Source: Flaccisagitta enflata (taxonomy: Eukaryota). From it: a stretch of DNA of 64,000 nt. A program made the translations under genes and the position numbers. Below, piece after piece: positions 40,089-62,855 of the stretch. Location: NCBI GenBank assembly GCA_965153355.1, contig OZ231126.1:46314001-46378000 (forward strand), read 5' to 3'. How positions within the stretch are numbered: position 1 is the stretch's first letter; every line of letters begins with the position of its first letter. The notes below the pieces were generated by a model, which saw nothing but the letters and a program-made list of their open reading frames with translations, was not told the DNA's origin and searched no databases.

Positions 40089-40140
<52 letters not shown>

Positions 40141-40151
40141 CGAGTGAGCGA

Positions 40152-40207
<56 letters not shown>

Positions 40208-40823
40208 GAGAGCGAGTGAGCGAGTGAGCAAAAGAAAAAGAAAGAACGGAAAGAAGGAAGGACAGAAGCATGGGAGAGCTGAAAAGATGTCAAAGAGCGA
40301 GAGGTAGAGACGACACGACAACACATGAAAACAAGGAAATCCTCCACGAACCTGTATGAGCTTGAGAGGGAATGGGGATTGTGAAAGATCGGTGTAATCA
40401 TGACCAGGAAGAAGATGATCTTACCGGAATGAGAAGCTTCCAAAGCGGCGCCATATGAAAGGAGGAAGGTTGAGAGTTGGAGAAGTTGTTCGATTGTTGC
40501 ACAGCCGGATTTTAATGCTTGTATCACAGATACTGGTAAAGATACGTCAGGACCTGAAAGGGAAAGTGTGAGAGGGAAAGAAGAGTTCAGGATTGACGGA
40601 AATGCGTCTGTAAGTTGATAACCGACAGAAAGCATACGTCCATTGATTATCCACAAAAATTTTATGACTTACCTAAACTGGCGGGAAAGGCCACTTGGGA
40701 AGGTGCCGAGACTGGAGGCGTGGGATTTTGCTTTCTCGCCGTCACCGAGGCAGCGCCAACTCTTCCTACTTTACTGTCCAACTTAACACGTGCCCCTCGG
40801 CCTCGGCCCAACGAAGTGGACAT
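37691..40823 (-). CDS. Small protein with N-terminal GRGRG and a partial MIF4G-like domain (PAIP1/CTIF/MIF4GD-like); 3' end uncertain
   Basis: Exons 40823-40673 (MSTSLGRGRGARV...), 40553-40425 (GPDVSLPVSVIQALK...LSYGAALEASHS) and 38130-37691 (DIVNELFGALRRFI...IRLLVLRLLEIRQQGW...ADAYY) join in phase at GT-AG sites. RxLxLxLxExRxxGW..YY resembles the last MIF4G helix. A probable in-frame intron spans 37943-37818. The gene ends either at TAA 37691 or splices on from GG|gtaagt at 37695. Confidence 0.72.
38164..40090 (+). mobile_element. Non-autonomous Helentron/DINE-like element (family A) containing a ~1.75 kb 10-bp satellite
   Basis: 5' AACAAGGCCAACACCTATAAGTCGCGTGCGA, then (ATAATTACCT/ATAATGACCT)n and (AATTGACTTA)n arrays, GACG/GACC microsatellite, and 3' AGTCGCGTGCACGCGA. 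The ends match the 28380 copy. Confidence 0.75.
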
Positions 40824-41303
40824 GATTAAGGGAAATAAGTTACACACCAACACTTAACCTTGAAAACAAACAAAAACCGATAAACAAAAAGAGGATGCTT
40901 AAAAATAACTGGAGGCACTACTCTAATGTAAGAGAGAAGGTGGGGGGGGGTGTAATAACGGGAGGCACGCGACGAATCAGTTACAAAAGAAAGTTAGGCT
41001 GACGCATGGCACATGATATGAGACCAAAAACAAAACAAAACTAAAACTAACATGTAAAACGAGCAAGGTATGAAAAGAAGCAAAGGCGCGGTTGGTCGAA
41101 TAAAACGGAAAATTTGATTCAACAAAAAAGTTCAATCCGGCTTGGAGCAGAAAGATCGGAAATAACAAGCGACCAACGCGCCTGTAATTGTCCTACGAAG
41201 TACACGTAGAAAAGTAGCAACAATGCTCGACAGCTTGAAAGCCCCATGGCTACAAACAAAACGAATAACTGATAAAGATGCAAAAACAAAGCTTCTTATC
41301 TTT

Positions 41304-44300
41304 CTAAATCAACGACTTCAGAACGTCCATTTTCTTGGCCATTTCTTCGATCTTTTTGGAGGCTTCGGCGTTTTTCTTCTCCATCTCAGCCAATCTTTCC
41401 TTCAGGCTGTGGTTTTCATCCTTCAGGCTTCGATAATCTTCGTTCGTGGCGACAACCGTTTGGTCTTCCACCGGGGCCAGCTTTGGATTCGTAGAGGCAG
41501 CGACGGCCGGATTCGCCTCGACGTTGTTGTTCAAATCCACGACGTTGTTGTTCAAATCCACGACGTTGTTATTCAAATCCACGACGTTGTTATTCAAATC
41601 CAAGACAGTGGCGGAAGTGGATGGCTTGGTAGTCGGCCCCGCGTTCCTAATTTCGTCTTCCGCCAACTCGAGATAGCCATCGTTTCTTAGCGACAAAGCG
41701 ACATCGCTGCCGTCGACTACCAAACTCACGATCATCGTAGGAATGGCGCCCGTGGAATCGATTTCGTGACATCGAACTGCGACTTCCGCGTTGACGATAT
41801 CGCTGAGAATCTGGCTGATGTCGGATCGAGGCCGAACAACCCCTCGGAGGGCGCAAGGAGCGCAGAGAGCCGGCAATTTCAGCAAATCGTTTGGAATGTC
41901 GACGAGATCCGTCGGAAGCAAAACCGCAGAATTGCCGTAGTCCACGAACCAAACTTTGATCTTGTCTGAAAAGGGCGGAAAGGGAAGCGGAAGCGTTTAA
42001 CAATTATGGTAGATCTTTTACAGCGCTCAGCGTATTGTAACGTGAGAGTTGAAATAAGCTGTATACAAGATTCACCATCGCAACTACCTGGTTCCACGTC
42101 TTCAAAAGCTGCAGTTATCACAGCGCGATAGAGCTGTGAAGAGAAAAGAAATTAGAAAATTAGTTTCGTACCTCCGCGTCCCACGATTTTAAGAAAAGAT
42201 TGAGGTGCCTTTCATTTTTAGGGACGGAGGGCAAATTTTTGGTATCGGTGTCATATCTTTATAGATATCTTTTTAAATTTCAAATCTCAGATTATCTGAA
42301 CCAGTTTCCCGCGTTGAGCTCGCATATTCGTAAGTAGCAAGACAAAAAAAATCCACTTCTGGGCACCCGTTTTCATTTTTTTATAACTTTTTGCTTGTAG
42401 AAACCTTTGTCAAAATGATGTAACAATGATGTAACAGATGCTCTTAACGAAGGTATCTCATGTAAATTTCAGAAAAAAGAGAAATTTTTTTCTCTCTAAT
42501 GTTGTCATGGAATGTGTTCTCAAAGGTCAGGAAAGATATGACCGCTCTGCCATCTCATAACTTAATAGGAAATTCTGATATGCCCTCCTTTTCAGATGAG
42601 TCATTTTTTCCACTTTCTTTGGAGAACTTTTGACTATATACAATTCACGTTTATTTTTTTTGTAATGTAACACGTGGAGAGCACAAAATTGGTACATTCT
42701 ACAAGAATAATGCTCGACCTTACCAACAAAATTGATTTTGACCCCTTTCAACGAAAAAGATTTGATTTTTTGAAGCCAAACTGAATTTCGGACAAACGCG
42801 ATTTTCGTATTTATCAACATTTTTTGATTTGTCCCATCCCTGTCTCGTGTCATTAATGATGTTCTTATTTCTTACCAATAAAAGCTGATGACCTCATTCT
42901 TCTCCAGACACTTCCTAATGACGGGGGCTTTCAATCGAAATGAAATTCACCTCTAGTTTCGTTTTTTTCCACCCACTTAAGAGGCCGAGACGGAATTTCG
43001 GACAAATGGCTATTTTCGTATTTATCAACATTTTTACCGCTAGGCCAAGACGTGAGAAATCGTCCACTCTAACGCTCAGAAAACGCTAAGAAACATGTTA
43101 AAGATTCATGAACAGTCACAATTAGTTCTGTAAAGGCTTCAGGATGTTATTTTTGCATGCTGCTGTTTGTTGCAGCACAGTTGCAGCACTTTTGCAGCAC
43201 AATTTAAGACATTTCCGCAAATAGTATTTTTCTGTCAAAGATTGGTCTCTTCCGTTGGTCTTGGAGCATATAAGCATTTAAGTATAATGCTTGTTGGTCA
43301 TGTGCGGGCTTACAGTAACACATGCAGTACAATTGCAGCACAATTGCAGCATATTTGCTGCACATTTGCGAAAATCTTTTTTTCGAATTCATCTTTTCCC
43401 GTTGGCCTTTGAGTTCTGAAATACATTTGGGAATTGATAGTCATGTTGAAGACTAGAACAATAAGTTATCACACGCAGCATGATTGCAGCACATTTGCTG
43501 CATATTTGCTGCACACACTGAAAATTGCCGTTTACAAATTAGTTCTTTATGTATATGGTGCCTTCTATTTCTAGGGCAAATTTCTGTGATTTGTGTCATA
43601 TTTTTGTTGAAAATTTGTCAAATTTCCTATGTCCTATTTTCTGAGCCAACTTCTCACTTTGAGCTCGAATAAATGTGAGTAGTAAGACGAGATAATTCCA
43701 CTTCTGAACCCCAATTTTCAATTTTTTATGTATTTTTGCTTATACGATCATGCGTCAAAATGATGTGACAATAATGTAGCAAATGCTGATTACGAAGATA
43801 TCTAGAAAGAGGGGCTATTTTCTTTCCTAATATCATCATAGGATGTTACCTCAAAGATCTGCCTGCTTTCCCAACTGATAACCCTTTTAAAAATCACGAT
43901 GCGCCCTCTTCACCAAAATGAAGACTTTTTCCGTACTTTTCGGACAACTTTTGACTAAGCTCATACTACGATAATTTTAACAAAAATGCCACTTTCTCCC
44001 CAAAAGCTTTGTAATTACGAGGGCTTTCAATCGATATCAAAATAGCCATGAGCTTCCTTTTTTTTCTCCCTCTGTATAGACTGAAACTGAATTTCGGACA
44101 AATGCGATTTTCGTATTTGTCGACAATTTTACCGCAAAACCCGGAAAAAAGAAATGCTCCACTCTTTGAGGTTCAAAAGACACAACGGAACGAACTTGAG
44201 ACTCCTGAATAGTCACCATCAGTTGTGAGAAGGCTTCAAGATGTAATTCTATGCGTGCAACTGCATGCTGCAGCACAGTTGCAGCACATTTGTCGCAAAT

Positions 44301-47300
44301 CTACAGCATAGTTTAAGATATAATTTTTTTTCTTCAAAAGTAGTTCGCGATGGTCCGTAAGTATGTAAGAGGGGTTGGAGGCTTGTTATGCACGTGTAAG
44401 CCTAAAAACCCATGTGCAGCACATTTGCAGCATCAATGCAGCATACACTGAAAATCTTAATTCATCAATTCTATCTTTTCCCATTGGTCTCTCAGAGGTT
44501 TAGAAAGACGTTTGGGGATTGGATTTCATTTTGAAGACTAGAATGACATATATTGCATGATTGCAGCAAATAATGCATTTGGGTGTGTCAATATGCAAAA
44601 GTATTTTTGATCAGATCATCAACATTAGGGAATGTAAACAAAAGAATTCTAAGATATTTAGCATTTTTGTTTTTTCAAATTTCATTCATCTTCCTTTTTT
44701 TAGCGCAAGAAAAGATTGACAAAAATATATATACTTCCAGTATCTGCACCTAGATTTGGTGAAAATAAGACACATGATTTATGCAGAAAAGATAAGTTTT
44801 TATCTTTTTTTATAGATTTTGTGATAAATGAACAATATTTATTCGGTAAAAACTAGAATTAGCACTAAGATATAGTAGATCTCGTCTAGACTTGAGATAA
44901 CGGGGGCAAGCATTGTGGAAAGACAAATGAAGGCAGGGGAGCGATATTTGGATCATAGAATAATCAAAGGATGATTAATTCCCCATGATAGCTGGTTGCC
45001 ATGGAAACACATTTCCATGTATTCTCGCTGAAGTATCAATATTTTGAGAGATTTTTTTAGGGAACATTGCTTAAAATAACTTTCCCACAGTATGTTCTGT
45101 AAGAATGTCGCTCGTTTGGCCGTTGCTAGGGAGCGTATCCATGTGTGACAACCCCTAGCAACCGCTAAATGAGCAATATTCTTACAGAACATACTGTGGG
45201 AAAGTTGTAGCAAATTTTATTTTAAGCAATGTTCCCTAAAAAAATCTCTCAAAATATTGATACTTAAGCGAGAATACATAAAAATGTGTTTCCATAGCAA
45301 CCAGCTATCATAGGCAATAAAGCATCCTATTATTAGTCTATGTTTGAAATATCACTCCCCTGGCTTCATTTGTTTTCCTACAATACTTGCCCCCGTTATC
45401 TCAAGTCTAGACGAGATCTACTGTATTTATATATATAAACTTGATTATATTCCTGAGCAATAATGCTGATACAGAATCATTAACACAGCAATATACAAAT
45501 TAGCGGCTAAAAAGAGGTATTGAAAAAAACAGAAGATGAATGAAATTTGATAAAATAAAAACGCAAACGGTTTTAATATTTACTAATTAATGCTGTCTAA
45601 TGTTGATGGTCTCATCATAAAACCTTTTGCATATTGACACACCCAAATGCTGCATACACTGAAAATTACTGTTCAAAAATAATGTCTTTTCCCTATTAGT
45701 TTTTTTTCCAGGATCATCAATTCAAATCATTTTTGTGTGGTCAATAGAGTTGATAGTCGAAAAAGCGCCAGATAGTCTGTGGTATCAATTGTCTAAAAAT
45801 TGATATATGAATAGCGGTCAGCGGTACCCGTGCCCTGCTTCAGTGGTTTGTGATCAAAGTTGAGGGACGAACAGGGCAGCCATCCCAAAGGGGATGAAAT
45901 CCTGTTGAACAGAGAGAATCCGTCCATCCATCTGTGTCTGTCTGTCTGTCCATCAAATGATGAAATAATGCAAAATTCCCATTGAATATCACGCAAAGTT
46001 GAGGAAAAAATGAAATAATGCGAATTTACATGGAAAATGGAAAGTTTGAGGAAAATGAAAAAATAAGGAATTCTCAATAACATAGGAAATTGATGAAACA
46101 AGTAACGCAGGGTCGCACTAGTGTTGAAGACGGGTGGTCAGGGGCATCCAACCCTAATCCAATCTCCAACTTTTACGCCTAACACAGAAATTATCCAAAA
46201 CGCTTGTTTTTCCACTTTTTTATTCAATCATCACAGAAGGACCAATGGACCAACAGACCGACACCCAATGGAGTTGCGTGTTCACAAATAAAAATGAGAT
46301 TAGACCGTACAGCAGTGATAAATTAGGTTAACTCTAGCATTTAGGCAGGAGCAGTAAAGCAAAAACTACCGTTAATGCCAAACAACATCTCTCGCTATAC
46401 CCAAACTAAAATAAATGGAAAGGGCCTTGTGAGCCCTCACTGACTAGCTACTACGCGCATCACTCCCAGTTTTACATAAAACAGAATCTAAATAATATTT
46501 TTTTTTCAATCTAACCCAAAAGAAAACTGTTTACTAAAACTAGTTAAGAGTAAATGACACGTCACACGTCACACTGCAGTGACTACGGCTACTATAATCG
46601 AGTGAACAGTTAGAGCTTATATACATGTATAATTAGGCATGTGAGTGCATATATATTGATCTTTCGTACCAAAGACATGGAGCAAGGGTTGCTTATCAAT
46701 AGTCATGGACGTTGTTTCCACAATTGAACAAAGGATAAGTTATCTTTGCGGTCACAAACGCGAAAGGACTGATTCTGACGAGAATAGCCTAATTTGTATA
46801 GTCCGTCAGAAAAACTCGTCTTACGCGAGAAAAAGAGCCCATTAAGAAAATCGGATTGTGAATTTTATTAGCTCAAACATCATATTAACTGAAAATAAAA
46901 AGAAATCCAAGGATTTCTCGTTTCTAATTTTGCCGAATTTTTTACCTGGGTTCCACCCCTATTCATGAAAGGCACCTTGATCTCTCAAGATCATATGCAG
47001 AAATTTTAATAATTTCACCTGTCCCTCGAAAAGAGCCAAAACGGCTGCGCCGCGTCGTAACTGGCGTTTTTGATCTTCGAATATGCCTCTCCTGGTCATC
47101 AGCTCTTGGGTGGCCCCGAGTATGACCTCTTCCATTCCGGCGTAGTTGGGCAGATCGCTTGACGGTTGCATCAAGAGAGCGATATCTTTGACACTGGCGA
47201 CGTTCATGACGACGTTGTTGCTCTCTGCGCCGACTTGCAAATAATTCACGACGATTTTCTTCTCGGGACCAGCTGGCAAGATCGTCGACGCTGGAGGGGT

Positions 47301-50300
47301 GGGTGATCGGACGACGGATCGTGGGATCATCGAAAGGGGCGAGGTGATCGCGGAAGGCGACGGATTGTTTTTCGCGATGACGGCAACGGAACGCGAGGCG
47401 GACTCGGGGACTGCAACCGTTGGCGAGGGAGCTATTGACGTGACCTCCACTGGTGCAACGACTGGAGACGCCGCGACAGCAGCCGCTGGTGGCGCGGAAG
47501 TAGGCGTCGGGGCAGCCGCGGCGTTGTCTGCAGTTGCCCGAGAAGGCGCCGCTGAAGGGGTGGCCCTGGGAGCTGAAGCGGGTGCACCCCCAATTTTCGC
47601 GGCCAAGCGTTTCTCAACGAGGGTCTTCTGAAGCGCGACGTCGTTGAGAAGTAATATAACGAGAAAAACCTTGGACTCGGCGCTGTACTTGCGAACTTTG
47701 CAAGTGGAAACGGCTTCGGCGATCATAGCCTCCTAAAAAGGAGAAAATTGGAGTAAATTCTTCATAAGCATTCGTTGCTAACTCCAGGCGAATGTCATGG
47801 TATGCTCATCGAGAGATAGGCAGGAACCTGCAACAAGGTCTGAGCATCGGGAGACCAATCAGACATTCCGGAGGGCAGGGTAAGCCCGGAGAGCCGGCAA
47901 CGAAGAGACTGCAGAGGCACGTCGTAGTGTTTGCGAAGGATCTGTCGCACGTCTTTTAACGCCACCTGGACGATAAGACGATGTGCGTGATTAACTGTTC
48001 AAAACGATAGAAGATTCTAACTTGATGACAGTTTACATGAAAATAAAACAAGGGATAACCTGGTCGCAGTTGCCGTAATCAATAAATCGCAAGTTGACGA
48101 CAGTTTCCGGTTTGGGCTCCGCGACATCCTCCAACAACGCCGCTCGATACCATCCTTCGCTCCAAAGCGCCACCACCACCGTACCACATTTCAAAACGGA
48201 AGTCGTTGGGGACAGCGCATCAAGAAGAGGCGGCGTAGCCGGACCGTAAGCATTGAGATCCTGAGCCAGGGCCAACATGTCGAAAGCCTCTTCTTTCAAC
48301 GAGAGGTGGAAATCGACGGGGCTGATAAATTCGTTGATGTCGCAACTGACTGCCGCTCCCTCAACGAGAGACATGTGGCCTGAACATGCGAGAAAAAAGC
48401 TTAAAAACAACAGTCCTCGACTGTAGTCTTTTTGGTGTCTGACCCGGCTACTCAGTCTGACCCGGCTACTCAGTCTGACCCAGCTACTCAGTCTGACCCG
48501 GCTACTCAGTCTGACCCGGCTACTCAGTCTGACCCGGCTACTCAGTCTGACCCGGCTACTCAGTCTGACCCGGCTACTCAGTCTGACCCGGCTACTCAGT
48601 CTGACCCGGCTACCGATTGCATACCTTGTAGTCCATGGTGGCATACCTTGCAGCCTATGATGGCATACCTTGAAGTCCATGATGGCATTCTTTCAAGTCC
48701 ATGAAATGAATTTTTTTCAAAAAAAATTTTTTTTTTTTTTTTTTAAATTTTTTTTCAAAAAAAAAAATTTTTTTTCAAAAAAAAAAATTAAAAATTTTTT
48801 TTTCAAAAAAAAAATTTATAAGTCCAGGAAATAATGTTACTAGATACACCATAAATACCCTTATATTTTCTTAACCAATACTCAGAATTATCTGAAATAT
48901 TGCAGGGGAGCTTTAATTGATACAATGAACCTTCACAACAAGTTTGAACAACATTGGTGAACCTTTACTACCCTTCCCCTATGTAAAATGCACAAGTCCA
49001 GGAATTAATGCTACTAGCTAAATACCCTAATATCTTCTAAACCAATACTCAGATTTATCTGAAATCTTGCAGGGGAGCTTAAATTGATGCAAGTAACCTT
49101 CACAACAAGTTTGAACAACATTGGTGAACCTTTGCTACCCTTCCCCTATGTAAATTGCACAAGTCCAGGAATTAATATTACTACAAAAATAATAGGCAAA
49201 GGGTATTAAATATTTATGAATGTTGTTGAAAGTTGGTACACAGGATAGTAATGCTGTAAAAATAACACTGACCAAGTTTCATCAACATCTGAGTACTGGT
49301 TCCCAAGTTTTTAAGGGTTGACACAACAAACAACAGACGGCTTACTACACGATCAGTGCTATGTTATAGTCCTCGACGTAAACTGATCGTCGAGGACAAA
49401 AAAAGTTCCCAAGGAAATCAAGCGATTCCATCAAACGATTCTGTTCTGATAACTCTGAGCAAGGGACTTAAGTTCTGATAACTCTGAGCAAGGGACTTAC
49501 CTTGCGCCATGTCGGATAAGTTAAGCAACGAGTCGGCCGTGACGACAGGAGAAGTGGGTGTCGACGCAATGGCGGTGTCATTAGCACCAGTCTCAGCCGG
49601 AGTGGGAGCGACGGCGGCGGCTTGGGTGGAATATTTGGCGACGACCGCGTCGAAATCAGCCCTTGATTCGACGGGGGCGACCAAGTGCCTTTTATCAGGC
49701 AACTGCCGAATTTTGTCGACAGAGAAAAAGCAGCCCTCCGGAAAGAGGTTGCGAATGGAAGAAACGTCGTCTTCACTCCATCCACTGACGTCGCCTAACG
49801 ATGACAAAGTAAAGAAAATGGCGCTTTTGAGAGACAGGACAAAAAGACTAGGCCAATAAATGCGTCCTACTTGAATGTAAAATATTAACATTCAAAGATA
49901 CTTCGATAAAAACATCTCGATATTAAGACGTAAAGATATTCAGATATCCCCCACAGTGACAGACGGATCTAAAAAAGTCATTCCAACGAGACAGTAAGAA
50001 CAGTCATTACAGTGAAACACTAAGAACAGTCATTCCAACGAGGCAGAAAGAAATGAACGCAAAGGGAACGTATTTTATATTAAGAAAGGCACGGTGTTGA
50101 TCGAAATAATAAAATATGCTTAGAACTGCAGTGAATCCAAATTTACAATTCAGACTACCTTCTGCAGCGGTGCATCGAAAGCAAAGTCTTGGGACGTTCC
50201 TTATATCGTCGGATGATGGATAAATGGCCGAAGTTGGCGATTTGGCTTCGTTGCCGTAATCGACGAAATGAAGATCAACGTCGCCTTCTTTGATAGAGAG

Positions 50301-50513
50301 GACGACGGCGCGATAAAACACCCCCTCAAATTGGCTCAGGACCAGGGCGCCTGTTGGGATATTGTTTAAGAGATTCAGGGCAGAAGGTGGGAAAAAGTTT
50401 GGAAAACAGAAGAGAGCATTTTTCATTTGAGAAAAGAATGAAGGAGAGAGGAAAGAAAAGAGAGAAAAGCAAGAAAAAAGAGAAACACAAAGAGGGAAGA
50501 TAGGAAAGAAGGA

Positions 50514-50557
<44 letters not shown>

Positions 50558-50715
50558 AAAAGAGAGAAAAAGAAAGAACGAAAGAGGGACAGACATAGAA
50601 AGACAGAGAAAGAAAGAAAAAAAGAAAGGAAGAAAGGAAGAAAGAAATGAAAGAAAAGAAAAAGAGAGAAAAGAAAGAAAAGAGAGAAAAGAAAGAACCA
50701 GAGCAAAAAAGAATG

Positions 50716-50758
<43 letters not shown>

Positions 50759-50778
50759 AAAAAAGAAAAAAAGAAAAA

Positions 50779-50824
<46 letters not shown>

Positions 50825-53800
50825 AAGAAAACAAAAGACAACACTATTAGGTCCATCTTATAGTCCCACGGATCTGATTGCCGTGGGACAAAAAGAAACA
50901 AAGAAACACTGAGGAAGAAACAAATAAACAAAAGGAAAGAAAGAGAAAGAACGAAACGAAGAGAAAGAGACAAATAAAAACAAGGAAAGAAACGAGTAAA
51001 AATAGAAAGAAAGAAAGAAAGAAAGAAAGACAGAAAAAAAGAAAGAAAGAAAGAAAGAAGCACGCGATAATCATGGATAATAGACAAAATGTTTTCTTCT
51101 TCGTCTTTTATTGCTTGATATTCCCTAAAAAACCATACCTGGCTCCGGTTTGCTGGCAGATTCAGCAAAGGACTTGGCCTTTTCCACTTGGGTATCTACG
51201 ACGGTTTGTAATTTCACGGCCGCGACGATACAATCCTCGTTCTGGAGGTAAAATTCGCCGGGAGTGTTAAAATGCGACAGCAGAAATTCTCCACGATCTG
51301 GGAACGGAAATTCGGCCAATTCAACCACAGCCAAATCTTTGGCTGGGGCAGCCGAGGCAACTGGGACGGTAGGTTCGGCTGGAGCCGATGGGGCCGGATC
51401 TTGAGCAGCCACTGGTTGGGACGCCGCTGGCTTTGTTGCCGGCGTCGGGCTGGCTAAAACTGTTTCGGATGGCGACGCAGATTTCGCTTTTAAATAACCG
51501 GCGTCACCCAAGCAATCGATCACAGACACCCCGTTTACGTCAACGATCTTCGCAGCGAGAGGAGTGGACTGAGTAGTAACAAAATAAAGATTTTATGTTA
51601 GCCATGAGCTGTCGTCTGTGAAAATCGGCAATTAACACACTCATTTGTCAAAAACAGAGCAGCTCGGCTCAGCTCCGTGCCAAACAATGCGAACAACATC
51701 TTAATGAAGGGTAGAGGTTTTCCCCACTGAAGAGTAATTGATCTTTTAATTTTTCATTAGTACCTGGTTCTTAGGGTTGATGATGCTCAAATCGAAGGAA
51801 GGTGCAGGGTTCTTCATCCAACTTAGGATACTGTCATCCATTTCGCATGAACTGACGCTATACTTGCTCGACGAAGACAACTGCATCAAAAGGGCGAAAA
51901 GGTTACATAAAATAAAATAGCATCGTAGAATAGGATATGGAAGATAAAAGCGGAAATTCAAAAATGTGGATAAATGAGGTTGCGGAAAATGGGGAGGACC
52001 TGGAGAATAAGGAGGAAGAGAATGATGCAATGAGGAAAACGAAAATTTGGGAGGTAAAAAATGAAGTTTGATGAGAAAGTGGGTTGAGGAGCAACTGGAT
52101 TGAGGAGGAACACTAACGGGAAGAGAGTAAATGTCAGGAGAAACAATAATATCAGGACAGAGGAAAATCAGAACAGAAGAGAGTGAAACAACGAAAAAGG
52201 TAGAAAACAGGGGGGGGGAAGGCTAAAATCTTTTTAGCACATTTTAGCAAATTTTAGCACATTTTAGCATATTTTAGCAGATTTTAGCATGATTTTGAGA
52301 TAAGGGGATCCCTGCCACCAGCTAAAATTTGCTAAAATGTGTGAAAATTTGCTAAAATCTGCTAAAATCTGCTAAAATGTGCTAAAAGTTAAAGAAATCT
52401 TATCACCAGCCTTCAACCACAATAAAGGCTGAAATATGCTAAAATATGCTAAAATATGCTAAAATTCAGTAAAAATCTTGAGAATTTCTTAAAAATCAAT
52501 GTGCTAAAATCTGCTAAAACCTTTTCATCCTGTCAACCAACTAGCAATATAAAAATGCTCCCAGGTACTACAATTTTAGCATATTTTAGCATATTTTAGC
52601 ACATTTTAGCACATTTTAGCATTTCGGTGGTAATTTTCTTTTTGAATATTTTAGCAAATTCTAGCACCTTTTAGCATGACAATTAAATACATAAAAATGG
52701 TCCATTTTTTTGCAATTTTTGCACTTTAGGCCATTTTCCACTCATCATTTCATCAAAAAAAGCAAATTCTGCGCAGATTTTTAAAAGAACATTTTAGCAC
52801 ATTTTAGCACATTTTAGCACGGGAGATAAGGGGATCCAATGCTAAAATGTGCTAAAATGTGCTAAAATGTGCTAAAATGTGCTAAAATATGCTAAAATGT
52901 GCTAAAAAGATTTTAGCCTTCCCCCCCTGAGAAAAGGAAGAACAAGGAAAAATGGAACAAGTCAGTCATCCTATTATCAAATATGGTCAGCGGTGCCCGT
53001 TTCCCTGCTCTGCTGCTGTTTCAAAGTAGGGTGGTTGTCCTGTAGAACACGGCCCGGGTTGAATTTCTATACATCCAAAGAAGAAGTAAGTGGGTCGGGG
53101 AGGGTCTGATTGTGCCCCAGAGTAGACCTAAGACGGCTGGTCTCAGGCCTGAGAGGATTTCAGGCCTGTAAGCCTGTGAGGACCAATTTTAGGCCAGTTA
53201 GGATTGATTTCAGGCCTGTGAGCTGATTTCAGGCGTAAGAGTGTAAGGGATGGAAAACTGTAAAAGCAGCATAACGGAAGAATGTGATGATTTTAGGTTC
53301 CAGAGGCTAGATTTGGGCTTTGGGCCTCGGGGAAAAAGGGGGGGGCGCTATCCAAAAAAGTAGGAACGGGAAAAGAAGGACAAGGTAGAACAAAACGGAG
53401 GAAATGAGAAAGGATATGCGAACTGAGGGAGCTAGGAAAAGAAGGAAGATGAAAAGGAGAAACGGAGTTGAAATGGAGAAAAAGAAGGAAATTGAAAAGG
53501 AGAAAAAGAAGGAAGTTGAAAAGGAGAAATCAGAGAATGAGGAAGAAATAAATTGGGGAGAATGAAAGGTGTAGAAAGATGACCAGATATGAGTGAGACA
53601 AATTTCTGCAAATCATAACTCACCTTCACTGAGAAACAGAGGCGAGGATATTGAGCAAGTTTCTCAGATAGACGTTTCAACTGCGACTTTGACACGGTGA
53701 CAAAGTTTCCGTAGTCGATGAAGTGCACTTTGAAGTTTCCGTCCACGATCTCCAAAATTTCTGACAAAGGATCAAACAATAAGTCGGGACAACATCAGGG

Positions 53801-56800
53801 TAAACCAATATTGAGCAGGTTAAATCATAACCATGAACTATAAGTTGCTGCCTAATTAGTACCTGCCCTATAGTAGGCGCCATCTTCGAAAAGGGCGAGA
53901 ACCAAGTCTCCAACCTCAACAACTTCCGGTTGCAGATTTTCCATCTCTAAAATGCTGGCCTCCACGGCGCTCAGAACGTCCAAAAACTCGGGGATGACAA
54001 CCTGATTGAAGCATTGAAAAAGTGAGATTCCAAGGTAGACACAATATGGATTCTGAGATTCCACCCAAACAGTTCTGCTTTACGTTCCCTACCATACCAG
54101 TCACACTACTGAAATAATGAACGTGTGTGATTGCGGTATTCAATGTTTTTAACTATTACTCATGCACCCTTTACATCATTGTAATTGGCTTGATTTTCAC
54201 ATGCATCGATCACCATGAGCCTTCAAAAGACGAAAGCCGAATTGAGAAAGAAACCTGAACGTAGATTTGCGTGAGAGAAATAACTTCCGTGATAACGATT
54301 TTCTTCGATTCGCCCACCTCGGGCACGTAAGGACATGGAGGAATTGCTTCGGCGCGAAATGTGGTCGAGGGAGGTGGTACGGACGATGCCGTGGCAGGGG
54401 ATTTGGTAGCCGCTGTGGGAGCCGACGGCGACTGAACGGTACGGAGTTTGACGATACCGGAGGCGGCGAGAACGTCCAGAACGTTGAGCGTCTTGGCGCT
54501 GTCTTTGATGACGGCGTTGATGGACGGCCGCTTGGAAGGCGCCAGAGGCGCGGAAACGTCGTTGACGGGTTGGGTTTTGGAAATGGAGATGTCAAAGGTG
54601 GGAGTTTCAACAGTGAGTTGAGCAACGGTGGTGGCGTCGAGGGTCCCAGTCGGAATGATGTACGCTTCATCGTTAAGCGATACGGGGAAGGACAAAGGGG
54701 GAATTTCTGTGGCACGCGCTGGTAAAGCCAAGGCGGAGGAGCCGGGAGCGACGTAGCAATTACCGTAGTCCACAAAATGAACCGCGATTTTACCACCATC
54801 CTGATAATGCAAATGAACGTAGATTTTCTTTCTCATCTCATTGAACCCTCCCAAACAAATTGAGCAATCAAGCTAAACAAAGGGGGGGGGGGGGCAAGCT
54901 AAAAATGTTTTTAGCAGTTTTAAGCCATTTTTAGCAAGAAATTTTTTAAAAGAGGACCCCCTTTTTTTAAGGGTCATACTGCTAAAAATTTGCGGAAAAT
55001 TTGCTAAAAACATGCTAAAATGTTTATGTACCCTTTAAATTTTAGCGACTGCTAAAATGTTGCTATAATATTGCTAAAATGGGTCGCTCTTCTTGAGTTT
55101 CGTTTTAGCAACATTTTAGCATAACTTTAGCAACATTTTATCATAATTTTAGCAACATTTTATCATAATTTTAGCAACATTTCAGCAACATTTCAGCAAA
55201 TTTTCATCATTATCATAGCATCATTCCATAATCCTCAAGTAAGTTTTTACCAACTTTTTCGCAAATGTCACAAAACTTTTAGCAAGTTTTTAGTAACTAA
55301 TATCACAATTTCATAAGCCTTTGAGCAAGTTTTAAGTGACTCTTTAGCAGACTTATAAAAGCCTTTTAGCAAGAAAATTCTTTTTTTTTTCTATGTCATG
55401 GCTTTTTAGCGGGATTTTCAGCAACTAAGAAATTTATGTCTTTAGCAGCCATTTTCTTAAAAAGGGAACCCCATTGAAAAAAAGAATTTAGCAACTTCTT
55501 AGCACGTCAAAAAAGGGGACCCCGTTGCTAAAAACTGCTAAAAACATTTTTAGCTTTCCCCCCTGTAAACACGATCACACACCTGTAAACTCAATACTTC
55601 AGCGCGATACAGGCATCCGTCGATGAAAGGAACAGCCAAAAGGTCACCGGCCTGAATCTCCGACTGGACTGGGTCCAGCGTCGCACCCATAAGCAAGGCC
55701 AAAGCCTCGCTGGCCGCCGCGAAGTCGTCCGTCAGACACTGCACATAGACTCTTTGCAAGCTCTGCACGTCGGTAATCAGAATCACGGCAGGCTGTGGAG
55801 CATCAGGTGCGGGTACGAACGCACATAAAGGCAACTTGTCAGCTCGAGGATTGACAGCCTTGGGGGCCGACTTTTTGTTGGGAAGATTCAGAGCTTTGAG
55901 CAAGTCTTGTCCATCCGCCGTGAGGACCTCGACGACTCCGGCATTAGCCGACAGTCGAATCACCACCTCGGGCTGGGATGTGATAGCCGCAATCACTTCG
56001 GGACTCGCGGCGCCGGTCGTGTCATAGGGAAGTTCCTCATCCAAGGGCGCCCAGAATCCCAACGTCGGCAGACGAGCGATGTCCGATGAAGCCGGGAGGC
56101 AATTGGCTTTCTCGACGCTGTTTGTGTTGCCGAAATCGAGGAATCGGACGCCAACTGCGCCGGAAGTGGCGTCAATAGATTCCACCACGGCGCGATAATA
56201 TGCGCCATCGACATCTGTAGCCAACAGCAACTCACCAACGCCGGGATTCGCGGCTGAGGTTGTTCGTCCTTGCCACGCCTGGATTTAGGTGATTAGGGGC
56301 GGAGTGAGTTAGTCACTTATTGAAATAATCAGAAATAGAGAAGAAAGAAGGAAAGATGGCAAAAAGGAAAGAAAGAGGGAAAGAAGGAAAGAAAGAGGGA
56401 AATAAGGAGAGAAAGAGGGAATAAAGGAAAGAAAGAAGGCAATAAAGAAAGAATGGAAGAAAGAAGGCAAGAAAGAAGGAAAGAAGGCAATAAAGAAGGA
56501 AAGAAAGAAGGCAATAAAGAAGGAAAGAAAGAATAAAGAGAGAAGGATAGAAAGGGATGAAAGAAGGGGGAAGATGAGAAGAAAGAAAAGAAGATGAGAA
56601 AGGAGGAAAGAAAGGAGGCAAGAACGAAGGATTGAAAGAAAGAAAGAAAAAAAGGAAAGAAAGAAGGAAAGAAGGAAAGAAAGAAGGAAAGAAGGAGGAA
56701 AGACAGAAGGATAGAAAGAAGGAAGGAAAGACAGAAGGATAGAAAGAAGGAAAGAAGGAAGGAAAGAAAAAAGAAAGAAGGAAAGAAAGAAGGCAATAAA

Positions 56801-59800
56801 TAAGGAAAGAAAGAAGAAAAGAGAGAAGGATATAAAGAGATGAAAGAAGGGGGAAGATGGGAAGAAAGAAGGGAAGAAAGAAAAAAAAAAGATGAGAAAG
56901 GAGAAAAGGAAGGAGGCAAGAACGAAGGATTGAAAGAAAGAAAGAAAAAAAGGAAAGAGAAGGAAAGAAGGAAAGAAAGAAGGAAAGACAGAAGGAAAGA
57001 AGGAAGGAAAGAAAGAAGGATAGAAAGAAAGAAGGAGGAAAGAAAGAAGGAAAGAAGGAAAGAAAGAAAGAAGGAAAGACAGAAAGAAAGAAAGAAGGAA
57101 AGAAAGAAGGAAAGAAAGGAGAGAAAGAAGGAAAGAAAGAGTGAAAAAAAGAAGGAAAGAGAGAAGGAAAGAAAGAAGGAAAGAGAGAAGGTAAGAAAGA
57201 AGGTAAGAAAAAAGGAAAGACAGTTAAGAAGGAAAGACAGAAGTTAATAAAGAAGGAAAGAAGGAAGGTAAGAGAGAAAGAAGGAAAGACAGAGAGAAGG
57301 AATGAAGAACAGAAAGAAGGAACGAAAAACAGAAAGAAGGAATGAAGAACAGAAAGAAGGGAAGAAAGTAAGGAGGAAAGAAAGAAGAAGTCCTGAGAGA
57401 AAGAGTGACGGAAAGAAAGAGAGATGGAAAGAAAAAAAGATGGAAAGAAAGCAAGCTGGAAAGAAAGTAAGCTGGAAAGAAAGTATGATGGAAAGAAAGT
57501 ATGATGGAAAGAAAGTATGATGGAAAGAATGTATGATGGAAAGAAAGTATGATGGAAAGAAAGAAGGAAAGAAAGAAAGATGGAAAGAGAATGATGGAAA
57601 GAGAATGATGGAAAGAGAATGATGGAAAGAAAGAAAGATGGAAAGAAAGGTGGAAAGAAAGAAAGAAGGAAAGAGAGAGAAGAGAAAATCTGAAAGAAAG
57701 AAAAGAAAAAAAAGACAGAATGGGAGAAAAAAAAACTATTTTAAAATGAGCAGGCTCCCTTACCTTCGTTATCTCATCGTTTACATTGACCATGAGCGCC
57801 TTGTTGTCATCCGTGAGTGGTTGCACGAAGACATTCTGCCAATCTTCAATATGAGGAATCAAGGCTGGAAAACTTTTGACGCTGCTCAATTGTTCTACGG
57901 CGAAGAGAGGGACGGACTCGGCCATAATCTTTGGTGGCGGTGCGACTTGAACGGTGGGAACTGGAGCTTGGGTCGTGGCGTGTCCAGAGGACACCAACAA
58001 GTCGGCAAGAGAGACACCATCTCCTCGCTTGGCGATGACGGAAACGACGCCATCGGTAGATTTTCCTACGACTTGAACGGACACGGGTCCGAAAATGGGA
58101 AATTGCTCCTCCACATAAGCCGATGATTCCGGCGCCCATTCCAAAGCGCCTTCCGGCAGCGGATACAGAGGCGGAGACGTCTCGCAGCAAATGGCGAGTG
58201 AGGGTAAATTGGAGTGGAGCGAAGTTGCCGTCATGGGTCGTAACTGAGCGGGATTAAGCATCGCGTCTTCGCCGTAATCGAGGTATCGGATGGAGACGAG
58301 TCCCGATGAGTCGACGGGTGAAGTGACTCGAGCGCGAGACCACTGACCATCGGCGACCACCCAAGCGGCAACAAAATCGCCTGAACAGATAAGAGGATTA
58401 AACAGAAAATCATCAAATTACGTTCATTTGTTATTTTGTGTTTTCATTGATTAACCAACCAAATCATCATACCGACGGCAGGGGCGAAGTTTGGATTCGG
58501 TGGTGAACCGGCATAAATACGATTCAACTCCTCGCTCACGCCGGCGAATCTTCCTATGACTTCGTCATCTACTTTCCAAATGGAAAAGCGACCGGGCTTG
58601 GCGTGATAGACGATCGTGGCTTCGATCATGTCGCCGATGTTTACGTCATCGCCGGCGGAAGAAAGATGAAGAGGAGGTGGCGATGGTTCTTTAGGGGGCC
58701 GCTGAGCATCGACGGGTTCGGACTTGGCCGATATCTCCGGTGGACGAATCCAATCGGCGTATCCAGCGTTGACGAAGACGGTCGCCAAATCGTCGTCGCC
58801 ACATCTGATGTCGACCTGAAAGAGACGAATATTAAGGAAAAGTGGGAATACATGAAGCTGAATTAAAAACTATGTTCTTGACGTGAAACCACTTGATATC
58901 TGATCAACTCATTCCCTCGTTATCATTTAACAAAACAGATATCAGGTTTAAAGTTACTTCGTCATTACCCGTCATTACGAGGTTCAACCATGTTTCGTAC
59001 CTTGTGTCTCGGAAAAAGAGAGTCCGCCGCTTGATTTTCTCTGACGACAATTTTCAATTCCTTGAGCAGCAATTGTTTGAACAACGCCTGAACGTCGGCG
59101 GGCCAAACCAGCGCCCCATTCTTGGGAACAACGTTGGCCAAGGCGCAAGGAACAACTCTCGAGGGCAATTCGGCGAATTCCGCCGGCAAAGGGCGAATGT
59201 CGGACAACTGCGTCGAGGCCGAGTTACCGTAATCGGTGAACCACAAAATCGGGTTGCCATCGACCGTTTGCGAGCCCGGTTTAATTACGATGGCGCGAGA
59301 AAACTGCTCCTCGAAAAACGCCAGTACGGCGCGACCAAGGCCACAAACGTCGTCGTCGTTACCACCTGCTGCAGTGATAGCCGGCATTTGCCGTAAAGAC
59401 GTCGTCAAACCGGCTAGAGTGGACTCCATGGAAATATAGCGCACGTCGTCGGCCGACTCGAGAACGGCGAAATCTCCCGGGCCGGTGGCGTCAAAAACGG
59501 ACAGAGAAGCTGAGGAACCCACTTTCAAGGTGCGGACTTCAACACGCGGCGAAGACGTCGCGGACGCGGCAACTGACAGAGGGGAAAATGGCCGAACGGT
59601 AGAAGGAATCGAATAATAATTCACAGTAACGAGCGATACGTCGATTCAGTTCTTGAGAAGAGCGATGTGAGACAATCCAGACCAGAGTCGAAAGTTGTAA
59701 AATGAAAGCAAAGTGAAAAAGATAGACGTGGAAGAACGCCAAAATTTTGAGAATCATACCGGGACCTTCCCTGGAATCCTTGACCGATTGGAGTTTCTTC

Positions 59801-61309
59801 TTTGCGCAGACGTTGCGATGAACGGGCCAATCTTCAGTTTGACACTCTCGAGAGCAGTAAGGCTCTTTGCACGATCCACACTGTTGTCCCGCTTGCTTAC
59901 CACATCCGACGCAAATGCGTTGACTCCTGAGTCTCGGAGAAGCGGATCGCTGCCGATGGCAAAGAGAGAGGGAAGGGTACATGACAAATTTGAGGGGATT
60001 ATTTCATATGTTCCAAGAATACAGTTCATATGTTTTAAAATGGTATGAAATGGTTTAAAATGGTTTAAAATGGTTTGAAAGGTTTTGAAATGCTTCCAAA
60101 TGTTTTCAAATATTTTCGAATGTAATAAAATTTCATACGTTCCAGGAATTCAGTTCAAATTTATCATGAGAGACAGTAAGTCTAGTCAATTTAGGATAAA
60201 TATTGTACAAAGATGAGGACAAGGAACAATTACGATAATAGATGAACAAGGGCAGCACCTATAACATGCTTTAAGTCGCGTGCGGGACATAAACAACTTC
60301 AGATGACTTAAATTGACTTTAAATGACTCAAGATGACCTGAATTGACTTAGAATGACTTAAATGACTAAATTGACCTCATTGACTCAAGTGACATAACAT
60401 AACATAATATGACTTAAAATGACTTAGAATGATTTTGAGTCACTTATAATGACTTCAAGTCACTTATGACTATGGCATTTGGGAAGGAGCTGTGAGCCCA
60501 AAAGACTTAAAAACGCCAAAAAGTAAAAAGGGGACCGACTGACCAACCAACCGACAAAGCGGGGTGTAGAGTCGTGTTGCACGCGACTAAAAAGGAGGAA
60601 ACGCGCAAAAGCAAGAATCGAGAAGAGCAATAAACAGATGAATGCATAAAGAGATGAAATCATTGAGTCGAGAGAACGTCACAAAAACTAAGAAGTACGA
60701 AACCTGAGCTTGAGACATCTCGGTAGCAAAGGCTTCTTCCTCCATCTTTTGTTGCTTCCTTTTGGCAAGCTCCTCGTCGGACAGCGCAATGGCGACTTTA
60801 ATTTGATGAGCTTCGTCAATTTTGGTTCCATTGAGCGCCTCGATGGCGGCGCTGGCTTCTCGAAAACTGCCGTATGTGACCCACAGACGGGACAACTGTG
60901 GATTCGTCGCGTCGGAACTGCGACTGATCTCATTAACTTCTCCATATTTGGCAAACATTTCTTCCAGTGAAGTTGTGGTGCAGCGGCGTGGAATACCTAC
61001 GGAAAGCAGAGGTGTACTCAATGTTAACCGTAACAGGAAAAAATATGAAGTGGTAGCATTGAACCATCACATCACATCCACGGCAAAAATACCGGTTATG
61101 TACAGCTTGGTGATCCTCTTTTCAGCCGCGTCCCTCCGCATTATCTGCACTTGACGAGCATCACCATTAGCGACGACGCCATTCAACCTTTGCTGCTGCG
61201 CGTGGAGATCCGCGCCGATCCCGCGTTGATACGAGTTGAAGTTGGCATTGACGTGGGCATCCGCACTCGGATCCCACGTGTCCAAACGGACGGAGCCACA
61301 CACGGACAT
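41304..61309 (-). CDS. Multi-Tudor protein: RRM + MYND zinc finger + 8 extended Tudor domains + C-terminal coiled coil (Vreteno/TDRD1-like), ~2220 aa
   Basis: 19 phase-consistent GT-AG exons: 61309-61093, 60996-60704 (RRM), 59949-59760 ([30 protein letters not shown]), 59572-59001, 58815-58473, 58380-57764, 56278-55583, 54800-54255, 54001-53863, 53760-53624, 51880-51764, 51568-51139, 50350-50159, 49794-49501, 48379-48060, 47965-47828, 47732-47019, 42133-42088, 41965-41304. Eight [FY]xD[YF]G[NE] Tudor signatures, each preceded by an xxRA strand. Kozak-like CCACCGCCATG start. Confidence 0.92.
44873..45423. mobile_element. Near-fully palindromic Tc1/mariner-type MITE (TA TSD), nested in a TIR element at ~44575-45650
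   Basis: TA|TAGTAGATCTCGTCTAGACTTGAGATAACGGGGGCAAG...CTTGCCCCCGTTATCTCAAGTCTAGACGAGATCTACTG|TA. The outer element has TIR GCATTTGGGTGTGTCAATATGCAAAA / TTTTGCATATTGACACACCCAAATGC. Confidence 0.88.
48405..49403 (+). mobile_element. Helentron-like element (family C) in intron 14 of the Tudor gene
   Basis: 5' AACAACAGTCCTCGAC; 3' hairpin GTCCTCGACG-taaactgat-CGTCGAGGAC followed by an A run; internal 18-bp and ~165-bp tandem repeats. Confidence 0.6.
48437..48613. repeat. 18-bp minisatellite (GTCTGACCCGGCTACTCA) x~10
   Basis: Near-perfect tandem copies with no spacers. Confidence 0.95.
52208..52929. mobile_element. MITE with CAGGGG termini and a 6-bp TSD (AGAAAA)
   Basis: CAGGGGGGGGGAAGGCTAAAATCTTTTTAGCAC / GTGCTAAAAAGATTTTAGCCTTCCCCCCCTG; AGAAAA at 52202-52207 and 52930-52935; many TTTTAGCA repeats. 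Confidence 0.88.
54880..55565. mobile_element. Related MITE with a 6-bp TSD (TAAACA)
   Basis: (A)AGGGG...AAGCTAAAAATGTTTTTAGCAG / CTGCTAAAAACATTTTTAGCTTTCCCCCCTG; TAAACA at 54874-54879 and 55566-55571. Confidence 0.82.
56335..57720. repeat. ~1.4 kb purine-rich (GAAA/GGAA) low-complexity tract in Tudor intron 6; a similar tract lies at 50430-51060
   Basis: The plus strand is overwhelmingly A/G. Confidence 0.95.
60246..60592 (+). mobile_element. Family A element in intron 2 of the Tudor gene
   Basis: AACAAGG...AGTCGCGTGCGGG, (AATGACTTA)n array, GACC microsatellite, AGTCGTGTTGCACGCGACTAAAA. Confidence 0.7.
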
Positions 61310-61646
61310 GGCGGTGGAAGATGTGGATTAATCGCGTATGGTTGTAACGTGTAAGCGTTTCTACTTATTATGTTGATGCCCTTAAATGGGTATAGGTTAG
61401 AACTCTGCAAAGACACCAAGCCGTAAATTTATGAGGCATAGTTGTGAACGGAAAATCGTGAGTGCGCGTGTTACGAAATACTACCAGTCACGTTAACAAT
61501 AACAAGCGACTGATGAATAAATATTCCAACAAAAACAAAGATAGAATTTGTAGCATGGAGTACAAAGTGATTGACAAGCAGGTATTTGGAAGAATGGCAC
61601 TTGAATGAATAAGAACAACGTTACTTCAACTGATCAGTTCCACGCG

Positions 61647-62717
61647 TCATAACATTTCCGCCAGGTCCATAATGGAACCGACGTAAAAATCAGGCAAAAG
61701 AGAACGTAACGGCATTCCGTGGTGGGTTCCACCTTCATTAGACTGAACAATCTGCATGATGTCGACTGACGTGACGCCCGAGAGTACGGCGATGGACGCG
61801 ATGCCATTTCTTCTGGCGAACCCCACATCTGACCTCAAACTGTCGCCGACCATGCAGGCCCTCGTGGCGTCGAAATCCGGCACATTTGCGCAAATCGCCT
61901 CCAAGATGGCGGGGCCGGGTTTCCCGATGTAGGTCGGCTGTCTATCCGAGCAAGTGGCTATGCATTGTGCCAGACTCCCGGCTATAGGTTGAACGCGTCC
62001 CGGGGAGAACTCATAACCAGTTTCCCACGAAGTAGCGAGAAAGTGACACCGCCAATCACCGACATCGTCGCATCTCTTTAAATAACTCGCGGCTTTCGTC
62101 AGCTTCATGAAATTAAAATGCTCGTCCTGGCCGACCACAACGACTTTGACATCGTCAACCAGCGGAATAGCGAGAATGTCTGCCAACTCGTAAGAAGGCG
62201 GAGTGTTATCCGCGCCATTACCAAAATGATTGATTCCATGAGTTGTGAGTTCTTCCTCCAACCCTTTGGATCCCATCAAATACACCGAGTCGTTCGGCTT
62301 CTCCAAAAGCTGCTCCAACTTAAAGCGCATGACTCGATTGACGCTGAAATTTTCGTTTGGAGAGCAAACGTAACCCGTCATCCGATGAATTTTGTCGTTG
62401 AGCGCTTGCGTCGAGGGAATGCTGTTATTGGAGGCGAACAAGATGGCTTTCCCTTTGTCTCTTAACTTGCCCAGTGCGTGCTGCACGCGATCAAACCTTT
62501 GAGCGTGATCAACGTGCCAAATCACGCCGTCGCAATCCAAAATGAGGGTGTCGAAACGATCTAATATCTCCAGCGCGTTTCTTTTCGTGATTTCAACCGG
62601 CCATGAAGATGAGTGAGAAGAAAAGTTTTTGACTAGAGTTGCGGACAATGCATGGAAGGCACATCGGAATGGCGCATTCACAAGTGTCATGTTAGGTTTT
62701 GCTAAAAAAGCTGCCAT
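61647..62717 (-). CDS. HAD-superfamily subfamily IIA phosphatase (PGP/G3PP- or pyridoxal phosphatase-like), intronless, 356 aa
   Basis: Uninterrupted ORF with HAD motifs I (LILDCDGVIW), II (ASNNS), III (IGKPG) and IV (MVGDSLRSDV, followed by VLSGVT). The N-terminal ~40 aa lack acidic residues, so a targeting peptide is possible. Confidence 0.93.
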   Translation of the reverse strand: MAAFLAKPNMTLVNAPFRCAFHALSATLVKNFSSHSSSWPVEITKRNALEILDRFDTLILDCDGVIWHVDHAQRFDRVQHALGKLRDKGKAILFASNNSIPSTQALNDKIHRMTGYVCSPNENFSVNRVMRFKLEQLLEKPNDSVYLMGSKGLEEELTTHGINHFGNGADNTPPSYELADILAIPLVDDVKVVVVGQDEHFNFMKLTKAASYLKRCDDVGDWRCHFLATSWETGYEFSPGRVQPIAGSLAQCIATCSDRQPTYIGKPGPAILEAICANVPDFDATRACMVGDSLRSDVGFARRNGIASIAVLSGVTSVDIMQIVQSNEGGTHHGMPLRSLLPDFYVGSIMDLAEML

Positions 62718-62775
62718 TCTAAAAAAAGTGTATTTCTGGCGAGGGGAGAAACTGGGGGTGCATGAACATTAACAA

Positions 62776-62855
62776 CTTCATTTGAAATATATTATCCGTT
62801 TGACAACGAGCTCCTATGAAAAGCCTTTCATCATCAAACATCATGCCAAATGAAG
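62776..62855 (-). promoter_or_regulatory. SECIS element (type II) in the SPS 3' UTR
   Basis: Sense strand: CUUCAUUUG-gc-AUGA-UGUUUGAUGAUG-AAA-GGCUUUU-cau-AGGAGCU-CGUUGUCAAACG-GA-uaauauauuu-CAAAUGAAG. It shows a 9-bp helix I, AUGA/GA core, 12-bp helix II, unpaired AAA and an apical mini-stem, and lies ~220 nt after the SPS stop. Confidence 0.92.

What the first reader, a model, noticed from the sequence alone, without database searches (positions are those of the whole stretch)
41104..61510. Same bipartite motif in two different intergenic spacers
Seen: sense GUCGCUUGUUAUU (13 nt) is identical in the HAD-Tudor spacer (61498-61510) and the Tudor-MIF4G spacer (41161-41173). It is followed in both by AUUUUCCGUU (61447-61456 and 41104-41113) at similar offsets (51 vs 57 nt). 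A 10/13 match, GUCGUUUGAUUUU, lies in the SPS spacer (62995-63007). A rough equal-base estimate for a shared 13-mer between two such spacers is ~0.002, somewhat higher with AT bias. Inference: a shared intercistronic processing signal (analogous to the nematode Ur element) or a common 3' UTR protein/miRNA site.
Basis: partly seen in the sequence, partly recalled or inferred. Interest (0 to 1): 0.7.

Follow-up and report, generated by a model that had tools for sequence, protein, structure and literature searches.

The report
Shared words in arrow-worm operon spacers
Two neighbouring gene spacers in an arrow-worm operon do share a 13-letter and a 10-letter word, but the pair occurs nowhere else in the genome, so it is most likely a coincidence between two UUGUU-rich 3' UTRs and not a general operon-processing signal.

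Summary
The match is real: both words lie on the minus strand as stated. The genome is a chaetognath's (217 spliced-leader SL3 matches), and the locus is an LSm-SPS-HAD-Tudor-(MIF4G-like) operon. The pair is rare under shuffling (5 of 117,792) and sits 136/130 and 190/190 nt after the two stop codons. But genome-wide it occurs only here and in a ~95% identical duplicate; a looser pattern is not enriched (17 vs 75 control). In 44 other hand-picked spacers neither word is enriched, while the same set detects the miR-2 K box (18 of 44). No flanking homology, shared fold, SL 5'-splice-site complement or exceptional SL3 pairing was found. What the spacers share more widely is UUGUU density, ranks 1 and 2 of 47; word 1 holds UUGUUAU, a Brat/NCL-1-type core. 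Best reading (0.55): UUGUU-rich 3' UTRs plus chance. A locus-specific selected module is not excluded (0.2). An Ur-like signal is not supported.

The parts
61498..61510 (-). Word 1 (13 nt, core UUGUUAU) in the HAD 3' UTR, 136 nt after the stop
   Evidence: RNA contigs from HAD reach 61501 (X1, X3; one sample) and 61477 (X2)
61447..61456 (-). Word 2 (10 nt), 190 nt after the HAD stop; beyond the ends of the HAD contigs, 42 nt before a candidate acceptor AG at 61406-61405
   Evidence: the acceptor is inferred from sequence only
41161..41173 (-). Word 1, 130 nt after the Tudor stop; its last base differs in the duplicate operon copy
41104..41113 (-). Word 2, 190 nt after the Tudor stop; candidate AGs 57 and 63 nt downstream
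61310..61646 (-). Spacer S1 (HAD stop to Tudor ATG), 337 nt, 5 UUGUU
40824..41303 (-). Spacer S2 (Tudor stop to next ATG), 480 nt, 10 UUGUU
41085..41182 (-). Predicted long-range stem enclosing both words in S2 only; no counterpart in S1
   Evidence: (z -2.68 for 41075-41195; z -0.70 for the S1 stretch)
62718..63077 (-). Spacer S0: SPS 3' UTR with poly(A) near 62735 and HAD acceptor AG at 62753-62752; holds the 10/13 match at 62995-63007
63078..63530 (-). Last two exons of the selenophosphate-synthetase-like (AIRS/AIRS_C) gene; intron 63178-63321
61647..62717 (-). HAD-family hydrolase ORF (Hydrolase_6, Hydrolase_like)
41304..61309 (-). RRM + MYND finger + multi-Tudor gene
37925..40823 (-). Start of the downstream gene; MIF4G label only weakly supported
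   Evidence: (E 0.27 to a MIF4G-domain protein), no Pfam hit

Best explanation
The two spacers are the 3' UTRs and acceptor regions of consecutive genes in a chaetognath operon. Both are rich in UUGUU, the short 3' UTR element bound by TRIM-NHL proteins (Brat, NCL-1) in flies and worms. Word 1 is one such site (core UUGUUAU) whose flanks happen to match, and word 2 is a chance U-rich match. There is no bipartite signal as such. Shown: operon layout, word 1 inside the HAD 3' UTR, UUGUU excess, absence of the pair elsewhere. Inferred: protein binding, and that the flank identity and word 2 are coincidence.
For: Pair found only in this operon and its recent duplicate (4 hits each); looser pair 17 vs 75 control. 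In 44 control spacers word 1 (up to 2 mismatches) is in 1 (shuffle mean 0.4) and word 2 exact in 1 (0.12; reached in 21 of 200 shuffles). The same set detects the K box, 18 of 44 vs 6.85, 0 of 500 shuffles. No similarity outside the words: 734, 1972 and 1177 of 2000 shuffles score as well upstream, between and downstream. UUGUU: S2 10 (p 0.005) and S1 5 (p 0.006), ranks 1 and 2 of 47. UUGUUAU is a conserved worm 3' UTR heptamer (PMC1309705); UUGUU is bound by Brat/NCL-1 (PMC5784609). One substitution falls in word 1 in the duplicate.
Against: The exact arrangement is rare under every null tried (5 of 117,792; 0 of 57,784; 4 of 46,276), so UUGUU richness does not by itself make it likely. S1-S2 has the longest shared word of 23 same-locus spacer pairs (13 nt; next 10 nt). 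Word 2 lies 190 nt after both stops. The UUGUU test was post hoc and each count includes the site in word 1. UUGUU is not enriched in the control spacers overall (32 of 44 vs 29.9). The number of spacer pairs in this genome, needed for the multiple-testing argument, was not counted.
Confidence: 0.55

Rival explanations
1. A locus-specific, selected bipartite module: two RNA-binding proteins (a TRIM-NHL protein on word 1, a second factor on word 2) co-regulate 3'-end formation or stability of the HAD and Tudor mRNAs, or read-through to the next gene.
For: Rare arrangement; near-equal distance from the stops; HAD contigs end in or within 24 nt of word 1, so the two words may straddle the 3' end; two control spacers (L138, L153) hold CCGTT and CTTGTTAT close together.
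Confidence: 0.2
2. Relic of an old local duplication: the two spacers descend from one ancestral UTR copied when a gene entered the operon, and the words are the last surviving identity.
For: Colinear words on nearly the same diagonal from the stop codon; the operon has duplicated recently; HAD is largely a single-exon ORF.
Against: Flanks align no better than shuffles; 101 of 1,081 spacer pairs reach the S1-S2 local alignment score; no older paralogue of HAD or of the Tudor last exon.
Confidence: 0.1
3. General Ur-like intercistronic signal that recruits the SL snRNP; word 1 pairs with the second stem-loop of SL3 RNA.
For: Word 1 can pair 12 of its 13 bases with SL3 RNA just 3' of the splice donor (-11.3 kcal/mol; 23 of 2000 motif shuffles do as well); word 2 lies 42-63 nt before candidate AGs.
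Against: 18 of 44 control spacers hold a 15-mer that pairs with that segment as well; 4-6% of all 13-mers of the three window spacers pair with SL3 as well; no pairing with SL1 or for word 2; not the splice-site complement; absent from other operons; distances to the ATG differ (-201 vs -350).
Confidence: 0.07
4. DNA promoter elements for internal promoters of the Tudor and downstream genes, or paralogous small RNAs (snoRNA-like) hosted in the spacers.
For: Both words lie upstream of genes; Tudor coverage is far below HAD in the RNA contigs; S2 folds into a stem around both words.
Against: No Rfam match at either site; consensus fold -0.2 kcal/mol; no H/ACA or C/D box layout by inspection; no multi-copy target for a pseudouridylation pocket (20 scattered hits vs 11 control); unequal distance to the ATG.
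Confidence: 0.08

Closest known systems
UUGUU / UUGUUAU 3' UTR element (Brat, C. elegans NCL-1; PMC5784609, PMC1309705)
   Same: Core of word 1 is UUGUUAU; several UUGUU copies per UTR; lies in a 3' UTR of a protostome.
   Different: The known element is a 5-7 nt repeated site with no GUCG extension and no fixed partner word; binding was not tested here.
Nematode Ur element (TAYYTT about 50 nt upstream of SL2 acceptors; PMC7668243)
   Same: Operon spacer; word 2 is U-rich and 42-63 nt before candidate acceptors.
   Different: Ur-type matches are reported within 100 bp upstream of 48-65% of downstream operon genes in T. spiralis; these words occur in one operon and do not match TAYYTT or the chaetognath SL donor complement.
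Chaetognath operons resolved by SL trans-splicing (PMC2481426, PMC12460157)
   Same: Short co-oriented spacers, SL1 and SL3 genes in the genome, poly(A) site next to the following acceptor (3 nt in Spadella; overlapping at SPS-HAD here).
   Different: No intercistronic RNA motif is described in the passages read; P. gotoi is reported to lack operon-specific leaders.
K box (UGUGAU, miR-2 family site; PMC1309705)
   Same: It is the one strand-specific shared word recovered from the control spacers.
   Different: It is absent from S0, S1 and S2; word 1 breaks the seed match.

Membership tests
Ur-like intercistronic trans-splicing element | Present upstream of a large share of downstream operon genes | tested here: not met
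   1 of 44 control spacers for each word; pair only in this operon and its duplicate
Ur-like intercistronic trans-splicing element | Matches TAYYTT or is complementary to the SL RNA 5' splice site (the complementarity is recalled from Lasda et al. 2010, not read) | tested here: not met
   Neither word matches; YACTTT in 11 of 44 controls vs 14.1 expected, TAYYTT 29 vs 26.7
Ur-like intercistronic trans-splicing element | About 50 nt upstream of a mapped trans-splice acceptor | tested here: inconclusive
   Candidate AGs 42 nt (S1) and 57/63 nt (S2) after word 2; neither acceptor mapped by reads
Ur-like intercistronic trans-splicing element | Preceded by a short stem-loop (recalled) | tested here: inconclusive
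   Folds of S1 and S2 differ; no common structure
Brat/NCL-1-type UUGUU 3' UTR element | UUGUU core in the sense strand of a 3' UTR | tested here: met
   Word 1 covered by HAD RNA contigs; for Tudor the UTR location is inferred from the stop codon
Brat/NCL-1-type UUGUU 3' UTR element | Several copies per UTR, above composition | tested here: met
   5 and 10 copies, p 0.006 and 0.005, post hoc
Brat/NCL-1-type UUGUU 3' UTR element | Bound by a TRIM-NHL protein and represses the mRNA | not testable with these tools
   needs CLIP or a reporter; a Brat orthologue was not searched for
miR-2 site (K box) | Perfect UGUGAU seed match | tested here: not met
   No TGTGAT in S0, S1, S2; weak duplexes with miR-2, -6 to -11 kcal/mol
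snoRNA or other Rfam family | Covariance-model match, boxes, shared fold | tested here: not met
   target search uninformative if rRNA arrays are missing from the assembly
Repeat fragment | Flanks shared with other genomic copies | tested here: not met
   The two sites have unique flanks, although 16 of the first 30 of 63 genomic 13-mer hits fall in repeats

The most novel reading that the evidence does not exclude
Word 1 base-pairs with the second stem-loop of SL3 RNA and, with word 2, forms a gene-specific element that couples 3'-end formation to leader addition on both sides of a germline Tudor gene: an RNA-RNA signal for operon resolution in a phylum where none is described.
Probability: 0.05. 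Interest if true: 0.75.

Novelty: not a real feature. Interest (0 to 1): 0.2.

Why it matters
How chaetognath operons are cut into single mRNAs without operon-specific leaders is open, so a real spacer signal would be a handle on an independently evolved trans-splicing system. This pair of words does not provide it. The by-products are of modest use: a UUGUU-rich UTR on a Tudor mRNA, an SPS poly(A) site that overlaps the next acceptor, and frequent K-box-like sites in housekeeping operons.

Tried and rejected
Rfam scan of 40,000-64,000: nothing at either site. Alignment and consensus fold of the spacers: no homology or shared structure. L009, with word 1 followed by a 9/10 word 2, has no gene context in 3 kb. 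Of the 13 other loose-pattern loci, nine distinct ones were printed; those visible were intergenic, intronic or repeat, the output for L059-L061 was largely cut, and L064, L065, L068 were not printed (same match as L056). Raw-read run X9 laid 0 reads, so acceptors and 3' ends were not mapped at read level. No older paralogues. JGI metagenomes gave 71 loci at 24-46% identity, none a close orthologue. Branch-point reading of TGTGAT: no position near acceptors in 95 predicted introns. H/ACA target pattern: 20 vs 11 control, no array. Earlier scan notes: nothing in three look-ups. A second large set of spacers for replication could not be obtained, so replication rests on 23 short held-out flanks. 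The 12/13 match at 3898-3910 lies in no tandem repeat; whether it belongs to an interspersed repeat was not tested.

Full report
Observation. Counting from the base after each stop codon, word 1 begins at 136 (S1, HAD-Tudor) and 130 (S2, Tudor-next gene), and word 2 at 190 in both. A shared word of 13 nt or more appears in 875 of 117,792 dinucleotide-shuffled pairs; a colinear pair totalling 23 nt or more in 17, and the 13+10 form in 5. Preserving 3-mers or 4-mers gives 0 of 57,784 and 4 of 46,276 for 13+10. The 10/13 match in the SPS spacer is unremarkable: 7 of 44 control spacers have one as good, and RNA contigs show a substitution inside it at 63002.

Organism and locus. The genome is 794 Mb in 9 contigs. 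A pattern built from the SL3 leaders reported for Flaccisagitta enflata (PMC2481426 Table 3; passages read) matches 217 times against 0 for the control, and SL3 and SL1 genes alternate in tandem units of about 730 bp. The animal is therefore a chaetognath; I did not determine the species. A copy about 95% identical lies 190 kb away. Marine metatranscriptome contigs (3 runs, 2 samples) show the SPS poly(A) tail added near 62735, while HAD contigs stop aligning at 62751, just after an AG, with 20-21 extra letters that I infer to be a leader (letters not shown). HAD contigs end at 61501 (X1, X3) and 61477 (X2), so word 1 is 3' UTR and word 2 probably lies beyond the 3' end.

Genome-wide test. The exact 13-mer has 63 hits against 18 for the reversed control; of the first 30, 16 fall in repeats by my rules, 3 are this operon and its duplicate, and several of the rest are simple GTT/GTC arrays by eye. 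Two versions of the bipartite pattern each give 4 hits, all in this operon and its duplicate. A looser version gives 17 against 75.

Other operons. I fetched 40 stretches of 10 kb around proteasome and LSm hits, trained a codon model, and hand-picked 44 stop-to-ATG spacers: 40 of the 83 candidates, 1 and 3 located by eye; the rest were dropped as apparent introns, duplicates, window spacers or uncertain calls. At least three kept spacers probably include some coding sequence. Word 1 (up to 2 mismatches) is in 1 of 44 and word 2 exactly in 1 of 44, neither above shuffles. Among all 1,081 pairs of the 47 spacers, 8 share 13 nt or more and 3 have colinear pairs of 10 nt or more, two of them simple repeats and one S1-S2. 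The set has power: it recovers TGTGAT in 18 of 44 spacers (6.85 expected; 21 sense vs 1 antisense sites), with 10 vs 2 in 23 held-out flanks. This is the K box core (PMC1309705, passages), and the genome has 7 miR-2 hairpin matches with the matching seed. It is absent from S0, S1 and S2.

Ur-like and SL pairing. The Ur motif is TAYYTT about 50 nt before the acceptor (PMC7668243, passages). Neither word fits it, and neither it nor the complement of the chaetognath SL donor is enriched in the controls. Word 1 can pair with SL3 RNA stem II (-11.3 kcal/mol, 23 of 2000 shuffles), but 54 of the 1,111 13-mers of the three window spacers pair with SL3 as well and 18 of 44 controls match that segment as well. 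It is a lead, not evidence.

Common origin or small RNA. Outside the words the spacers align no better than shuffles, share no fold and have no Rfam match. There is no older paralogue or close orthologue to test conservation. In the duplicate, 1 of the 46 word positions differs, against 21 differing columns in 817 for the two spacers overall, which is uninformative.

What the spacers do share. Word 1 contains UUGUUAU, one of three heptamers conserved in worm growth-gene 3' UTRs (PMC1309705); UUGUU is the Brat/NCL-1 site (PMC5784609, passages). S2 and S1 have the highest UUGUU densities of 47 spacers (20.8 and 14.8 per kb; p 0.005 and 0.006). This test was post hoc and includes the site in word 1; without it S2 stays first and S1 drops to about sixth. 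UUGUU is not enriched across the controls, and TTGTTAT only marginally (6 of 44 vs 3.1, p 0.075).

Verdict. Most likely (0.55) these are two UUGUU-rich 3' UTRs whose extra identity is coincidence. A related genome is reported to have 2,151 candidate operons with 5,061 genes (PMC12460157, passages); if this genome is similar, a few thousand neighbouring spacer pairs at 1-2 in 10,000 would give a few tenths to about one such case per genome. That is an estimate, not a count. A locus-specific selected module (0.2), a duplication relic (0.1), a promoter or small RNA (0.08) and a general Ur-like or SL3-pairing signal (0.07) remain.

Literature. Six searches showed no description of an intercistronic RNA motif in chaetognaths; only the five papers cited were opened, as passages. 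PMC12460157 reports motifs enriched in operon-related open chromatin (Fig. 5i), which I could not see; its three text supplements were searched without finding the sequence and its spreadsheet could not be read, so a match to either word is not excluded. Gene names of the control operons, other than the Pfam families, are my recalled labels.

Noticed in passing
44 control spacers in L125-L164, L180, L181, L049: TGTGAT is strongly sense-biased (21 vs 1 sites; 18 of 44 spacers) in housekeeping operon spacers. It fits the miR-2 K box, but 12 of 21 sites have A, not the C expected from miR-2, in front, and predicted introns are biased too (27 vs 11); the same hexamer is complementary to SL3 stem II.
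   Followed up: partly
window 62735-62753 (minus): The SPS poly(A) site lies about 16 nt downstream of the inferred HAD acceptor and directly after a second AG, so the SPS 3' end and HAD 5' end overlap and may be mutually exclusive from one precursor.
   Followed up: partly
G000:C1:46.53-46.58 Mb (L043-L048): Tandem duplicate of the whole operon at about 95% identity, with an insertion of about 1.3 kb in the SPS 3' UTR at window 62974-62979 and an insertion of about 17 kb in the Tudor gene; real duplication or uncollapsed haplotype not resolved.
   Followed up: no
L041, L042 (G000:C4:23.12 Mb; C3:89.82 Mb): SL3 and SL1 genes alternate in 730-bp tandem units; both have the same third stem-loop sequence and no obvious AU-rich Sm site by inspection.
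   Followed up: partly
L035-L040 and other dispersed hits: Many dispersed leader copies are followed by unrelated sequence and look like retrocopies of trans-spliced mRNAs; they could be used to map acceptors.
   Followed up: no
window 62093-62221 (minus): A 129-nt in-frame GT-AG intron in the HAD ORF is skipped in one contig (X1) and retained in another run of the same sample (X3).
   Followed up: no
window 63078-63530 and L049: The SPS-like gene has a short N-terminus (MEQGTFSPS...); whether it carries Sec, Cys or neither at the active site, and whether a SECIS exists, was not examined.
   Followed up: no
L271-L277: Seven miR-2 family hairpin matches in three places, two clusters duplicated.
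   Followed up: partly
L150 (two spacers flanking an Sm gene); L138, L153: The two L150 spacers share TTTCCGTTAC, overlapping word 2; CCGTTA is in 9 of 44 spacers vs 3.2 expected, not significant after picking from all hexamers.
   Followed up: partly
window 41519-41606 and 48437-48613: A 21-nt repeat encodes (VVDLNNN) x4 in the last Tudor exon; an 18-nt repeat array lies in or beside another Tudor exon.
   Followed up: no
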